A DNA stretch of 64,000 bases, taken from NCBI RefSeq assembly GCF_002113885.1, contig NW_018407797.1:2775-66774 (forward strand), in the 5' to 3' direction. A program made the position numbers. This DNA comes from Mizuhopecten yessoensis (taxonomy: Eukaryota). Positions 57,001 to 63,000 of the stretch are shown one piece after another (the stretch's first letter is position 1; each line of letters starts with the position of its first letter).

Positions 57001-60000
57001 CCTGTCACTACAGGGAGAGCTATGGACACCATTTGAAACAGGAAAGAGAATAGTGTGCTTCCACCCGGGATCGAACCCACAATTCCTAGGTTCCCAGTCG
57101 GACACTTTACCACTGAGCTAAAAGGAAATTCTGTCTAGCTTAAGCTAGAATGTGACTGTAATTCTATGTACAATTAAAATCTGCCACATAGTGAAACCTG
57201 TCTAATCTGACACACTGTGAGAGACAATATATATTAAACGGATTAACCTATCCAATCAGACACCCTGTAAGACACAATATACAGGTCAGATTAGGCAGAA
57301 TGTCAGGTCTTATTTGGTAGTGTTTATAAGAAATGTTATGTTTAATTAGACAATAAGTCAAAATAACAAGAGGATTAGAAATATTTTGTTGTAAAATAAA
57401 CAATTCAATGTATTATGTTGTGCAGATGTTCAAACAAATATCAACTTTTTAAACACTTTAAATAATATTCTGAAAAAAAATTATAAGAATAATAACATGA
57501 CTTTTAATGGATATCCAAACACTGTTTCATCGGAATGCCAGTTGCTACAATGGAAGTTATTATAAGCCTTTCTACTTTAGAGCAGACAATTACAGACATG
57601 TAGGTTATGTCACAAGATGTCTTTTGATTTTTTTGGGGATACCTAAATTCTGTGCATCTTATCGGAATAAATTAAAATATTTCAGATTAAAACATTTTAT
57701 AAACAAGAGGCCAAGAGGGCCTGTATCGCTTACCTGGAAATGTTAGTAAAATTGAAGTTGGAATAGCTAGATGTTGCTGGTAGTGTACATGTATTACATG
57801 GTTAGTCAGGGGTTATATTTATGGAATTGGACAAAATCCTGTCATTCCTACAGGAAAAGAAGGATTTTGAAGAATTTGCTTTGTTTCCTCTGTTGGGCCC
57901 CTTCCCTCGGCCCCTTCCCTCTGCCCCAAGGGGGGTCAGACTCACCTTTGATACAAAATCAGGTCGCCTTTATTTACCCAATGATGTTTTAGACAAAATA
58001 TGGACAAAATTCTTTTATTCCTACAGAAGAATAATTTTCAAGAATTTGCTAAATTACCTCTATTGGCCCCCACCTCTCAGGCCCCAGGGGGATCAGACAC
58101 ACCATTTACACAAAATTGATTTCCCTTCCGCATAGGTGATACTGTTCAAATTTGGTCAAAATACCTTCATCCTAACAAAAGAAAAAAGGATATTAAAGAT
58201 ATTCCTCTATATCCCTTATTTGGCCCTGCCTCTCTGCCCCCAGTGGGGTCAGTGGTTCCCCTTCACCCAAGGATACTTCATACCAAATTTGGACAAAATC
58301 CTGTCATTCCTACAGAAGGACAAGGATTTTGTAGAATTTGCTATATTTCCCCTATTGGGCCCCACCCCTATGCCCCAAGGGGGGCCACACCAAGATCAAG
58401 ATGCAAGGATGTTCCAGACTAATTTAGAATCCTTTAATCCCTACTGTAGAAGAAGGATTTTAAATGTTTCACCTCTATTTCCCCTTTTCGACCCCGCCCC
58501 TCTGCCCCCAAGGGGGTCACAACCACTGTTTTTACAAAATTGAGTCCCCTTTGCCCAAATATGCTCCAGACTAAATAAGGATAAAATCCTTTAATCCCTA
58601 TGATAGAAGAAGGATTTTAAAGGTTTTACTTCTATTTCCCCTATTCGGCCCCGCCCCACTGCCCCCAGGGGGCCCACACCCAGCGTTTATACAAAATTTA
58701 GTCCCCTTGGCCCAAAGATGCTCCAGACTAATTTAGGATCAAATTCCTTTATCCCTATGGTAGAAGACAGATTTTAAAGGTTTTACCTCTATTTCCCCTA
58801 TTCGGCCCCGCCCCACTGCCCCCAGGGGGGGCTACACCCATCGTTTATACAAAATTGTTTTCCCTTTGCCCAAGGATGCTCCAGACTAATTTAGAATAAA
58901 ATCCCTTAATCCCTACGGTAGAGGAAGGATTTTAAAGGTTTTACCTCTATTTCCCCTATTTGGCCCCAACCCACTGCCCCCAGGGGGGCCACACCCACGG
59001 TTTATACAAATTTGAGTCTCCTTGGCCTAAGGATGCTCCAGACCAAATTTAGTCAAAATCTATTTAGCCGTTCAGGACAAGTAGCATTTAAAAGGAAAAG
59101 TTGACGGACGGACGACGGTTGGACGATGGAGTCCTTCGGACCAGGTGAGCTAAAAATTACCGGTATATAACATTTGTAAACTCAAATTGTTAAAAAAGTA
59201 AAAAAAACTTACTGGTACTTATTTTACTTTTTGTAATCTCATTCAATCGGAAATTTTGTTAATACACACTTAAATAGAAGAAAGAAAATGCATCACCAGA
59301 CCAGGATTCAGACCTGGGACCTCAAAACTGTAGATACAAAATTGTAGACATCCCAACCTATACGGCCATCTGGTGACCAGCAATTAATTGACCCGGTCCA
59401 GTTTTTTCTTCATTCCTCTCACTTTTTTTCTCACCCCTAAGACAACACTATATACAACCAAGGTTTGGGTATATCCTTGTCAAGCATTCACCCAGTTCTT
59501 GAAACAAGGATTGGTCACAGGCACCAATGTAACAGCAGAGGAAAATGCACATTCAGACCGGGCTTCGAACCCAGGACCTCCAAACCCCAACTAATCCAGA
59601 CACCTGGTCACCTGTGTTTAACTCTATCCAGTTCAGTTACCAAAACTGCAAATTGAGCAGAGTCAGTACAGCCATAGTTTCACATTTTTAAAATTAGGAA
59701 CATGCAACATTTTGGATCCAAAATCTGACAAAAACTCACCTTCTTCCTGATTTTATATCTTTTGAGGAGTTTGATGAGCTCTGATGTGACATTTGCGTCA
59801 CTCTCCAACAGGAGGACAGAGTTCCCTGATACATCCGTGGAGTGGTACATTAATAGATCATACAGAACACGACCCTGTAATACAAAAATGTCATACAGAA
59901 CATGACCCTGTAATACAAAAATGTCATACAGAACACGACCCTGTTATATAAAAATGTCATACAGAACACGACCCTGTAATACAAAAATGTCATACAGAAC

Positions 60001-63000
60001 ACAACCCTGTAATACAAAAATGTCATACAGAACACGACCCTGTTATACAAAAATGTCATACAGCACAAAACCCTGTAATTCAAAAATAGCATACAGAACA
60101 TGGTCATGTAACACAAAATGTCATACAGCAAACGATAATGTAATAAAAACATGTCATAAAGAACACAACCATATAGTACATAAAGGATGTTCAATGGTTT
60201 CCAGATGAAAACATTATACATTTCATGAGTATGGCAGAAAATTAACATTTTTCACAGGTACGAAGCAGGACTGAAAATATCTGTAAAGAAAAGAGGCTCA
60301 ATGATCCTGTTTCACTGACATGTCGTTTTCATTAGAACTAGGCAAGAAGTTAATATGTTCATACAAACTTGAGACCATGATTGCCACTATATTTCTGATT
60401 GACCAGTCAATAAAATAAGACTTGGTAATGACATGAATATTTGTACCATGTTAAAGTTTGGATAAAATTGATCCATGAGATGAGAACTTAATAAAAAACA
60501 AGAGACATAAATTCAGCTTATACAAAAATAATTTTCTTTAAATTGTATACTTGTTTTGCATAAAATTCAAATTTTTAATCCAATAATATATTATTGTTAC
60601 ATATTGAGTTTACCTGTACATTGAGCATCAAAGTATACAGACTGGGAATTTTGCCTCCAACAACAGCGACATCGTTTGTGACCAGACCCTGGAGGAATGG
60701 GACCGTGTCAGGCCCCTTCAGTCTAATTATTCCACGACTCCTCAAAGGATGAACGCTCCACTTTGCCCCTATTACATCATCACTGAAATGCCTGAGAGAT
60801 TGGACTGTTACGGTTTTTAAAGATGTCAAACATTGGTGGCAGTGTTTACATTTGTAACAGGGATGAGACTGGATGGCTGCTCTCTGGGAAACGCCTTGCA
60901 AACTCCTTAGTTGTGACAGTAAACCCCTCATGTCTACAGAGCTTCATACGCACTTTAGGGAGAGAAAAAACAACTACATAGATACCTGTTAATTTAAGTA
61001 TTCAGATGGTTTCTTCAGATATTCCTTTCGACTGATATAAGCTAATCAACTATACCTACTCACATCCACTGGCCAACCCACAAGTATTTCTCACTAGAGT
61101 ACTTGTACTTCTAAGAGGTGGAGCTGCAGTTTAAATTCAATTCAGTTTAATTCAAATTTATTGATATTGCAGCATACACGCATAGAATTCAAACATTTTA
61201 ATAATTAATGTATCGTCTGAGGACCTGTTTCTGTGCAATCTTTGTGATGTCATTGTTTACTTGGTAGTGAAAGCAAACAATTTGCATAGATCTGTGAGAA
61301 TGTCAAAGAAAATTAACCAAATACCAGTAAATGAATATTACTCAAAAACACATGGAAAAGAGGCATTTCCATCACCTTTATTCTTTCAGATTCAAAACCT
61401 TAGAAATACTCACGAAAAATGTATATTTTTTCTAATACGTATACATTGTATATATATATATATATGCTACATTTCGTCATTGTCTGCTCAACAAAATCTT
61501 GTGACTGTCATTTAAAAAGTTTTGTTGTGATTAAAAATGAAGCAGATACAAAATTCAAAATTATTTAGTAAACCTTTTACAGATACTCTTTCATCTTTTT
61601 GTACCGTAGCAGTATTTTTTTATTTACAGTTAATATATAAAACGTGTGCTATAAAAAGACAGGCACAGAAATTGGTCACATTATAGTGGTGTTCAATGTC
61701 GAAGAGGATATTGAATAAGTGATCATTGTAGAGTAATAAAGGAACTGATTGCAAAATGACTTCACAGTTAAAATTAAAAGCTAAACATTGTTGATAAACA
61801 ATGTAAAGCAACTAGTTGCTTAATTTTGCTCCTCTTCGTTTATTCGGCAAATTTCACATTAAAGGCTCAGAAACGAGTCACCTGAAGCTACGTACAATCA
61901 AACTAATGTCATGAATAAGCCAATCTGGCGCACTGTGGGTAGACAGATATAAACTAAAAAGCTAAACAGTAAATGCTTGACACATTATATTAATTTACTT
62001 CATAACGTCAGTTATCTAGATTCTTACATATTCTTCATCATTTAAAATTGGAAAAAATACAAGAACGAATACCTTCGTTTTAAGGTCACACCAGTTAGCT
62101 TGACATATAGCTCCCAGGTCGAAGAAGTTATCCAACTGCTGTAACCTTGTCAGTAACTGTTCCTATCTAGTTTCGTTTTTATAAAGGGCGATAACTGTGA
62201 TGCAACATTACTCTCTTAAAAATACAGATATTTTCAAACAAAAAAAAAACCAAAAAAATAAATATGAATTTTCTTGGTGCAATATTAGGGTTGATAGGAT
62301 TTAAATTCTCATTAATATTGACTTTTGTAGAACATTCAGCCCGAAACTACTACTTCCGGATTTGACACGAGCCACCGGCATTTGATATGATGACTATCGA
62401 AACTCACGGTTGAAAGTGATTACATACAGTCATCTGCGATGATTGGCAACCTAGTGCTGAGACTCATTCATTATGTGCTTTCTCTCGGGATATTTGTCAA
62501 GCATTGGATTCTCCATTTTCCATATCTTGGCTTCGCTTTCCAACAGAAAGCTTTGGCCGGAAGTCTAAGTTATGGTCTGCAAACACAGATTGAAGCTGAC
62601 GCAAGATCGTTTCAAAAGTTACCACATCATTTGGGTTTGCTAGTCTTGGAGAACGATGTCTCATTTTCAGACATTGCTAACTTAATTGTCTGGTCGATAA
62701 CCCTTGGAATTTCCTATATCAGCGTATTTGATATCAATGGTGAGGCCAGTTTTTAAGTTGTCAGGTCGTTTCGGTAACAAGACGAAAGTCGTTTCGGGAC
62801 TTTTTTCGGGTCGTTTCGGGACATGTCAAAAGTCGATTCGAGATTTTTCATGTGTTTTTAAGTTTAAACAATCGATTGGATAAAAGTTATTACAAATTAG
62901 CATAGCCTTCTCCCGTCATACAATATATACATTTAGTGATTTACCATTTCCTGATTTTAATAAAACATGAATAAATATATATAATATTCACAGACACGGA

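What the first reader, a model, noticed from the sequence alone, without database searches (positions are those of the whole stretch)
59858..60175. Minisatellite built from a splice acceptor: stacked 3' splice sites in front of IBA57 exon 2
Seen: the 33-bp unit is 16 nt of intron end plus the first 17 nt of exon 2, giving about seven AG acceptors. Because 33 is divisible by 3, the acceptors before 59907 and 59940 would add 11 or 22 in-frame residues (G[R/H]VLYDIFVLQ). Acceptors from 59973 upward read into a TAA at 59944-59946. The array could therefore switch between normal, extended and NMD-targeted transcripts of a Fe-S assembly gene. How the spliceosome skips near-identical upstream acceptors is an open question.
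Basis: partly seen in the sequence, partly recalled or inferred. Interest (0 to 1): 0.65.

Follow-up and report, generated by a model that had tools for sequence, protein, structure and literature searches.

The report
Scallop IBA57 splice-acceptor minisatellite ("mirage")
In a scallop gene for iron-sulfur cluster assembly, a short stretch spanning the end of intron 1 and the start of exon 2 has been copied about ten times in a row, leaving six spare look-alike splice sites; similar arrays in lancelets and in a human clotting-factor gene leave normal splicing undisturbed.

Summary
The window is Yesso scallop (Mizuhopecten yessoensis) DNA, not human. Six minus-strand exons reproduce the database protein XP_021363605.1 (CAF17/IBA57 homologue) exactly.

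A 33-bp tandem array (59858-60184; 9.9 copies) ends 17 nt inside exon 2. It holds seven AG acceptors exactly 33 nt apart. Acceptors 59907 and 59940 would add 11 or 22 in-frame residues. The four further upstream run into in-frame TAA codons.

This is a known kind of structure. [quoted passage not shown] The human F7 intron 7 VNTR is the donor-side counterpart. In both, the spare sites are reported silent.

Here the only database proteins use the authentic acceptor, 59874. No protein carrying the extension was found. LNVQ|GRVLYD is uninterrupted in 5 of 5 bivalve homologues and in human CAF17.

The most likely reading is a near-neutral mirage whose exon-proximal copy is the working acceptor. 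A regulated switch between normal, extended and NMD-targeted transcripts has no support, but it is not excluded, because no RNA data could be reached.

One new lead: an A at -29 (59903) is the only feature within -40..+17 unique to the authentic acceptor, and it is a candidate private branch point.

The parts
60614..60931 (-). IBA57/CAF17 exon 1 (codons 1-106; ends ...LNVQ, phase 0)
   Evidence: tblastn of P0001 residues 1-106 gives 100% identity. Exon chain. Donor cag|GTAAAC.
59875..60613 (-). Intron 1 (739 nt, GT-AG)
59858..60184 (-). 33-bp minisatellite ('mirage'), about 10 copies. Its 3'-most copy is the authentic intron 1/exon 2 boundary and reaches 17 nt into exon 2.
   Evidence: TRF. 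Copy table. Unit found only here in the window.
59740..59874 (-). Exon 2 (45 codons, GRVLYDLL...RKK). The authentic acceptor AG is at 59876-59875.
   Evidence: Aligns end to end, without a gap, with human CAF17 residues 61-105.
59908..59942 (-). Two in-frame pseudo-acceptors (AG 59909-59908 and 59942-59941). Their use would add 11 or 22 residues.
59974..60074 (-). Four pseudo-acceptors (AG at 59975, 60008, 60041, 60074) whose use meets an in-frame stop.
   Evidence: Acceptor 59973 is identical to the authentic one from -28 to +17.
59944..59946 (-). In-frame TAA, created by the T-to-A change at -5 of pseudo-acceptor 59940.
60043..60045 (-). Second in-frame TAA, made by the same T-to-A variant in copy 5.
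60089..60187 (-). Three degenerate 5' copies without AG.
59903..59903 (-). A at -29 of the authentic acceptor (context GUCAUG), a candidate private branch point. All 6 pseudo-acceptors have G at this position.
   Evidence: The branch-point role is inferred, not shown.
60075..60271 (-). 197-nt AG-free stretch just upstream of the first array AG.
53691..56766 (-). Exons 3-6 of the same gene (56766-56589, 56223-56086, 54920-54821, 53895-53691 including the stop).
   Evidence: Pfam CAF17 C-terminal beta-barrel on exon 6, E=4.7e-15.

Best explanation
This is a 'mirage'. A 33-bp piece made of the last 16 nt of intron 1 and the first 17 nt of exon 2 of the scallop IBA57/CAF17 gene was duplicated in tandem. 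It then expanded into the intron by the usual minisatellite processes (slippage or unequal exchange).

The exon sequence is the ancestral template, because GRVLYD is conserved from scallop to human. The copies are its offspring. Those next to the exon are young (31-33 of 33 identical). Those at the 5' end are old, degenerate and AG-less.

The productive mRNA uses the 3'-most, exon-proximal acceptor (59874). The six upstream AGs are pseudo-acceptors that are mostly or wholly unused.

Inferred mechanism of choice. All seven sites share the same weak polypyrimidine tract, AG and first exon bases, so the decision must lie outside the unit. Two sources are proposed:
(a) Exon definition. Only the last copy abuts the unique, purine-rich body of exon 2 and its donor.
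(b) Branch-point placement. By the 'first AG downstream of the branch point' rule, the authentic AG can be reached only from a branch point in the last 1.1 units. The one adenosine unique to that interval is at -29.

Any leakage to the upstream sites would give stop-containing transcripts (4 sites) or insertions in an invariant motif (2 sites). Such products would be waste, not a regulated output.
For: Shown:
- The array and its register.
- The six exons reproduce XP_021363605.1/OWF45531.1 exactly, using 59874.
- The motif L103-L114 around the junction is invariant in 5 of 5 bivalve homologues.
- The motif aligns without a gap to human CAF17: LNVQGRvLYD against LNVQGRTLYD.
- No protein with the extension was found. 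One search gave 5 hits among 211 candidates of 119-2000 aa, none with an insertion. One search gave 1 hit among 3 candidates of 36-118 aa, from another species and without the extension.
- The P0001 cluster has 1 member.
- Divergence rises towards the 5' end, and the three 5' copies have lost AG.
- The array acceptors have pyrimidine fractions of 0.53-0.59, against 0.71-0.88 for the 4 other acceptors of the gene. Such weak sites should depend on exon context.
- The unique body of exon 2 has 6 GAR motifs in 118 nt, including GGAAGAAG. The 231-nt array has 1.
- The A at -29 differs in all 6 pseudo-acceptors.

Precedent:
- In human F7 IVS7 the identical pseudo-donors are functional, yet only the exon-proximal one is used (PMC1557585 abstract and Discussion).
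- The first-AG rule and the bypass of AGs closer than 12-15 nt to the branch point are stated in PMC1431707 (passages).
Against: - No RNA evidence of any kind was available.
- Gene models are built to match homologues. The absence of extended isoforms from protein sets is therefore weak evidence.
- Pseudo-acceptor 59973 is identical to the authentic site over 45 nt (-28..+17), so nothing local forbids its use.
- The authentic site itself is weak.
- The F7 Discussion notes that old experiments with duplicated splice sites disagreed. Its refs 40-41 found the proximal copy used, and ref 42 found the opposite.
- If the branch point lay upstream of the array, the first-AG rule predicts use of 60072. 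A significantly AG-poor stretch does lie upstream of the array.
- Predicted RNA structure does not single out the authentic AG.
- The -29 A was noticed post hoc, and TnAy is a loose motif. Of 99 possible single substitutions in a unit, 4 would create one at 18-40 nt from the next acceptor.
Confidence: 0.6

Rival explanations
1. The stacked acceptors are really used, so array length or cell state shifts IBA57 output between normal mRNA, +11/+22-residue isoforms and stop-containing, NMD-targeted transcripts.
For: - Seven near-identical acceptors, one identical over -28..+17.
- Two are in frame and four meet a stop more than 200 nt before the exon 2/3 junction.
- The authentic site is no stronger than its copies.
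Against: - No extended protein in the collection.
- The insertion would split a motif invariant in 5 of 5 bivalves and shared with human.
- In both published precedents the spare sites are silent.
- The period being a multiple of 3 is unremarkable. Many other arrays in the window also have periods divisible by 3 (for example 15, 36, 39, 45, 60, 63).
Confidence: 0.12
2. Same mirage, but the authentic acceptor is chosen mainly by a private branch point. The G-to-A change in the copy just upstream created an adenosine at -29 (59903, GUCAUG). Exon definition is not the main factor.
For: - It is the only position within -40..+17 that differs in all 6 pseudo-acceptors.
- -29 is a usual branch-point distance, whereas the shared TGAC adenosine sits at -17.
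- Only 4 of 99 single substitutions would do this.
Against: - It is a post hoc observation.
- The motif is loose, with G at -3.
- No branch-point data exist for this species.
- The shared TGAC (-17) and TTAC (-37) remain usable at every unit.
Confidence: 0.2
3. Assembly artefact. The array or its copy number is a product of assembling short reads over a repeat.
For: - 20.7% of the window is tandem repeat.
- Another array runs straight into a run of N.
- Amphioxus mirages were reported mis-assembled in a draft genome (PMC3087553, supplementary-file legend).
Against: - The copies carry distinct private substitutions in an orderly 5'-to-3' gradient.
- They show a 99-bp higher order: 96/99 identity at period 99 against 156/165 at period 33.
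- The array is only 327 bp.
- The flanking exons are intact.
Confidence: 0.06

Closest known systems
[quoted passage not shown] Genes: Adh3, globins BflGb6/BflGb9, PGBD5, troponin C.
   Same: - The tandem array's terminal unit is the authentic exon/intron boundary.
- BflGb6 duplicates the 3' end of an intron plus the 5' part of exon 2, exactly as here.
- Most copies keep the AG.
- Unit identity is 81-100%, and the boundary copies escape homogenisation.
- Regular splicing is reported undisturbed (PMC3087553 section 16; PMC3902484).
   Different: - The host is a mollusc, not a cephalochordate.
- The unit is 33 bp, within the 10-72 bp quoted for Adh3 but far shorter than the 150-160 bp globin units.
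- Splicing and length polymorphism were not tested here.
- The original Adh3 paper (PMC117041) is not held.
Human F7 intron 7: a 37-bp VNTR whose first unit spans the exon 7/IVS7 boundary.
   Same: - A minisatellite built on a splice junction.
- 5-9 identical splice sites compete.
- Only the exon-proximal one is used, although the others are functional.
- Secondary structure did not explain the choice (PMC1557585 abstract and Discussion).
   Different: - Donor side, not acceptor side.
- The mechanism proposed there is 5'-to-3' scanning for the donor. An acceptor additionally needs a branch point and a polypyrimidine tract in each unit.
Short-distance tandem acceptors (NAGNAG type) and AG-creating mutations upstream of a 3' splice site.
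   Same: Several AGs compete for one intron end, and in-frame insertion of residues is possible. The AG competition and scanning rules are in PMC1431707 (passages). NAGNAG itself is recalled, not read here.
   Different: Those AGs lie within about 12 nt and share one branch point and tract. Here they are 33 nt apart, and each has its own copy of the tract and of branch-point-like motifs.
Intron gain or extension by tandem duplication across AG|GT proto-splice sites (the Rogers model, as cited in PMC3087553).
   Same: Duplicating a boundary turns former exon sequence into intron sequence. Mirages were proposed as raw material for new introns.
   Different: No new intron or exon has formed here. 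The gene keeps six exons colinear with its homologues.

Membership tests
Mirage (tandem duplication of an exon/intron boundary) | Minisatellite-like head-to-tail array | tested here: met
   Period 33, 9.9 copies, 84% matches, score 444. Six matches with 3 or fewer mismatches against 0 in shuffles.
Mirage (tandem duplication of an exon/intron boundary) | The unit spans the boundary, and one terminal unit is the authentic junction used in the transcript | tested here: met
   The array ends 17 nt inside exon 2. The exon bounds come from exact reproduction of XP_021363605.1.
Mirage (tandem duplication of an exon/intron boundary) | Copies retain splice signals | tested here: met
   Six of 9 upstream copies keep AG with the same tract. 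Three have lost it.
Mirage (tandem duplication of an exon/intron boundary) | Regular splicing is not disturbed | tested here: inconclusive
   Indirect only. Database proteins use 59874 and none carries the extension. No RNA data were reachable.
Mirage (tandem duplication of an exon/intron boundary) | Length instability or polymorphism | not testable with these tools
   Only one assembly copy is available, and no eukaryotic genome or read collection is open.
IBA57/CAF17 (YgfZ/GcvT-like Fe-S assembly factor) | GCV_T folate-binding-type domain plus the CAF17 C-terminal beta-barrel, with full-length similarity to characterised IBA57 | tested here: met
   - PF25455 on exon 6, E=4.7e-15.
- P0001 carries PF01571 and PF25455.
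- P0001 against human CAF17 6qe4_A gives E=4.6e-62 over residues 50-355.
Regulated alternative 3' splice sites coupled to NMD | Two or more acceptors demonstrably used in transcripts | not testable with these tools
   No transcript collection is available. The protein searches found no product of an upstream acceptor.

The most novel reading that the evidence does not exclude
The array is a copy-number-dependent dial on a mitochondrial Fe-S assembly gene. The upstream acceptors capture a share of transcripts. These become NMD substrates (four sites) or +11/+22-residue proteins (two sites). Individuals with longer arrays would then make less functional IBA57. In any case it would be the first acceptor-side natural model, mirroring F7 IVS7, for asking how a spliceosome chooses among identical 3' splice sites.
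Probability: 0.12. Interest if true: 0.55.

Novelty: new member of a known kind. Interest (0 to 1): 0.3.

Why it matters
Taken alone, it is a curiosity in one scallop gene.

It has some value as evidence that mirages are not confined to lancelets. Under that name, the held library has only amphioxus reports. Related searches with other terms listed no mollusc case.

It is also a clean natural test bed. Seven acceptors sit 33 nt apart. One is identical to the working site over 45 nt, and a single candidate distinguishing nucleotide lies at -29. A minigene series could use it to weigh branch-point placement against exon definition in 3' splice-site choice.

It also warns annotators of minisatellite-rich invertebrate genomes that exon starts can be duplicated many times in the adjacent intron.

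Tried and rejected
(1) RNA structure as the discriminator. A partition-function fold of 60300-59700 shows all seven AGs mostly paired (P unpaired 0.00-0.16; authentic 0.06). Copies 0-6 fold better than shuffles (-61.8 kcal/mol, z = -3.94). This reflects the unit's self-complementarity and does not mark the authentic site.

(2) A second, donor-side mirage. The arrays at 5296-5379 and 5484-5821 (+) have units containing GGTGAGT and lie in the intron after a CS-domain exon. The exon/intron boundary is no more similar to the unit than shuffles are (local score 17; null mean 16.2; P=0.38). 34.5% of 84 natural control segments score as high. Rejected as a shown mirage.

(3) Extension-bearing proteins. 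None were found.

(4) Other copies of the unit in the window. None were found.

(5) Structure prediction of P0001, to place the junction in the fold. The tool was not accepting jobs, so the step was dropped. The claim that an insertion would be harmful rests on conservation only.

(6) Recursive or secondary removal of an included array. By eye, the unit holds no convincing donor (GTCGTG, GTATGA after a T). This was not pursued.

The mirage alignments of PMC3087553 are in supplementary files I could not see.

(8) The joined step was left out. Exons were searched one by one. Full-length comparisons used the database protein P0001.
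Full report
WHAT THE WINDOW IS

The window has 38.7% G+C and a CpG observed/expected ratio of 0.71. It is very rich in minisatellites. Tandem Repeats Finder returned 35 rows. I merged these into 23 arrays covering 13,106 bases, or 20.7% of the non-N sequence.

A search with the extended exon-2 reading frame returned five CAF17 homologues, four of them from named scallops. The Mizuhopecten yessoensis protein P0001 (357 aa; XP_021363605.1, OWF45531.1) is reproduced exactly, stop codon included, by six minus-strand exons with GT-AG introns:
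- 60931-60614
- 59874-59740
- 56766-56589
- 56223-56086
- 54920-54821
- 53895-53691

The window is therefore Yesso scallop DNA (taxid 6573, Bivalvia, Pectinidae). It is not human. Exon 2 shows only partial identity to human CAF17.

Exons were searched one at a time. I left out the joined step: no spliced model of my own went to any search or fold, and full-length comparisons used the database protein.

GENE IDENTITY

- The last exon matches the Pfam CAF17 C-terminal beta-barrel (PF25455, E=4.7e-15).
- Of the 6 exon frames scanned, 4 matched no family alone. Exon 1 matched GCV_T only weakly (E=0.012, below the cut-off).
- P0001 matches solved human CAF17/IBA57 (6qe4_A) at E=4.6e-62 over residues 50-355.

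THE OBSERVATION

Tandem Repeats Finder gives 59858-60184, period 33, 9.9 copies, 84% matches and no indels, score 444.

In register with the authentic boundary (16 nt of intron end, 17 nt of exon start), copies 0 to 6 are 33, 32, 31, 33, 32, 32 and 28 of 33 identical to the authentic copy. Copy 7 is 24/33. Copies 8-9 are degenerate, with a 1-nt register shift.

Seven AGs lie exactly 33 nt apart. The three 5' copies lack AG. The unit occurs nowhere else in the window: 6 matches with 3 or fewer mismatches, all in the array, and 0 in 100 shuffles.

Frames:
- 59907 and 59940 are open to the donor (+11 and +22 residues).
- 59973, 60006 and 60039 meet TAA 59946-59944.
- 60072 meets a second TAA at 60045-60043.

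Both TAAs come from the same T-to-A change at -5 of an acceptor (copies 2 and 5). Within copies 0-5, identity at period 99 (96/99) exceeds identity at period 33 (156/165). This suggests the last event duplicated a three-unit block.

DIRECTION OF ORIGIN

The exon part of the unit encodes GRVLYD. L103-L114 (LNVQGRVLYDLL) is invariant in 5 of 5 bivalve homologues. It aligns without a gap to human LNVQGRTLYD, across the exon 1/2 junction.

The exon is therefore ancestral and the array derives from it, not the reverse. The same conservation argues that an 11- or 22-residue insertion between Q106 and G107 would be harmful. That is an inference.

WHICH ACCEPTOR IS USED

- The only M. yessoensis CAF17 protein in the collection uses 59874.
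- Its 90%-identity cluster has one member. An isoform differing only by the insertion would be expected to fall in that cluster.
- A search with the 67-residue extended exon among proteins of 119-2000 aa gave 5 hits among 211 candidates, none with an insertion.
- The same search among proteins of 36-118 aa gave 1 hit among 3 candidates. It is a read-through frame from another species, without the extension.

This is only weak evidence, because gene models favour homologue-consistent splice sites. I could reach no RNA data.

WHAT DISTINGUISHES THE AUTHENTIC SITE

Local signals do not distinguish it:
- All seven sites have a weak tract (pyrimidine fraction 0.53-0.59, longest pyrimidine run 5). 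The other four acceptors of the gene have 0.71-0.88.
- Pseudo-acceptor 59973 is identical to the authentic one from -28 to +17.
- Predicted RNA structure does not help. All AGs are mostly paired, and the array's good fold (z=-3.94) is a property of the unit.

Two non-periodic features remain.

First, only the last copy abuts the unique exon body. That body is purine-richer and holds 6 GAR motifs in 118 nt, including GGAAGAAG at its 3' end. The 231-nt array holds 1. The exon donor lies 135 nt downstream.

Second, there is the rule that the 3' splice site is the first AG downstream of the branch point, with AGs closer than about 12-15 nt being bypassed (PMC1431707, passages). Under that rule the authentic AG can be reached only from a branch point between about -1 and -48. 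Branch-point-like TnAy adenosines in that interval are:
- 59891 (-17, TGAC, present in every unit);
- 59911 (-37, TTAC, present in every unit);
- 59903 (-29, GUCAUG).

The last is made by the single private substitution of copy 1. It is the only position in -40..+17 where all six pseudo-acceptors differ from the authentic context. Only 4 of 99 possible single substitutions in a unit create such a motif 18-40 nt before the next acceptor. This is a post hoc lead, not a result.

COMPARISON WITH WHAT IS KNOWN

Amphioxus mirages. Ebner et al. [quoted passage not shown] One of them duplicates the 3' end of an intron plus the 5' part of exon 2. The paper notes:
- earlier cases in Adh3;
- units of 10-72 bp (Adh3) or about 150-160 bp (globins);
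- 81-100% identity between units;
- haplotypes with 6 and 3 units;

A second paper reports the same for amphioxus PGBD5 and cites troponin C (PMC3902484, one passage). The founding Adh3 paper (PMC117041) is not held. I know it only through these citations.

Human F7. Intron 7 carries a 37-bp VNTR whose first unit spans the exon 7 donor. Its 5-9 identical pseudo-donors are functional, but only the exon-proximal one is used. Secondary structure and reading-frame rules did not explain the choice (PMC1557585, abstract, Discussion). That Discussion also records that early experiments with duplicated donor or acceptor sites gave opposite answers in different laboratories. This tempers any confident prediction for acceptors.

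Molluscs. Searches for the term outside amphioxus found only the two amphioxus papers plus unrelated hits. Searches combining tandem repeats, splice sites and molluscs listed nothing relevant (listings only). I recall, but did not see, Reed and Maniatis 1986 on the role of adjacent exon sequence in choosing between duplicated sites.

VERDICT

The structure is real and correctly described. It is a new, molluscan, acceptor-side member of a known kind.

The most likely state is a near-neutral mirage whose upstream sites are silent or nearly so (confidence about 0.6). A functional splicing switch is possible but unsupported (about 0.12). Assembly error in copy number cannot be excluded (about 0.06 for the array as a whole).

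Interest is modest. Its best use is as a natural model for 3' splice-site choice, with a concrete testable nucleotide at 59903.

AN UNEXPLAINED SIDE OBSERVATION

The 198-nt interval between the AGs at 60272 and 60074 is AG-free. It is the second longest of 3,353 minus-strand AG-to-AG intervals, once the one spanning the run of N is set aside.

Mononucleotide shuffles give P(no AG)=0.0002 for the whole stretch and 0.006 for its 84-nt non-repeat part.

It may be the relic AG-exclusion zone of the ancestral branch point, lengthened by loss of AG from the three oldest copies. The best TACTAAC-like sites there are at 60226 and 60206. That is speculation.

Noticed in passing
window 60075-60271 (-): AG-free stretch directly upstream of the first array AG. 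It is the second longest of 3,353 AG-to-AG intervals on this strand, apart from the one across a run of N. Shuffles give P=0.0002 for the whole stretch and 0.006 for its 84-nt non-repeat part. It may be a relic AG-exclusion zone of the ancestral branch point.
   Followed up: partly
window 5296-5379 and 5484-5821 (+): Two minisatellites (29 bp x 2.9 copies; 63 bp x 5.3 copies) whose units contain GGTGAGT or GGTAAGT, a near-consensus splice donor. The second runs into a run of N. They lie in the intron after a CS-domain exon, but that exon's boundary is not significantly similar to the unit (P=0.38). This is not a shown donor-side mirage.
   Followed up: yes
window 4906-5096 (+): A CS-domain exon of a CHORD-containing protein 1-like gene (Pfam CS, E=1.1e-4). 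It is 90% identical to M. yessoensis P0007, whose longest listed contig (445,810 bases) differs in length from P0001's (1,074,510 bases). By eye, against P0007, the frame here breaks after an A/TA run and meets TAG at 5086-5088 before the GTAAAT donor. This could be a paralogue, a haplotype copy, a pseudogene or a homopolymer error. P0007 itself appears to read through the donor into intron sequence.
   Followed up: partly
window 38743-43768 (-), 1379-2018 (+), 19012-20159 (-): Retroelement remains. The first region has long open frames with reverse transcriptase (RVT_1, E=1.9e-16) and RT-RNase H (E=5.4e-6) domains. The second has RT fragments. The two frames of the third region gave no Pfam match.
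   Followed up: partly
window 26193-27041 (-): A 282-residue open frame with a rhodopsin-family 7TM receptor domain (7tm_1, E=2.9e-20).
   Followed up: no
window 27856-30591, 31568-32852, 46259-49769: Very long minisatellites: 36 bp x 76 copies, 35 bp x about 33 copies, and 55 bp x 62 copies. Tandem repeats make up 20.7% of the window and 20.3% of the IBA57 gene span.
   Followed up: no
window 62394-62739 (+): A likely first coding exon of a divergently oriented neighbour gene, ending at a GTGAGG donor. It has no Pfam match. From memory it resembles a NUS1/Nogo-B-receptor-type protein; that was not tested. The weak 22-bp repeat at 62765-62840 is intronic and does not span the donor.
   Followed up: partly
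window 59858-60055 (-): The six youngest copies show a 99-bp higher-order period (96/99 identity, against 156/165 at period 33). The stop-creating T-to-A variant recurs three units apart, in copies 2 and 5.
   Followed up: yes
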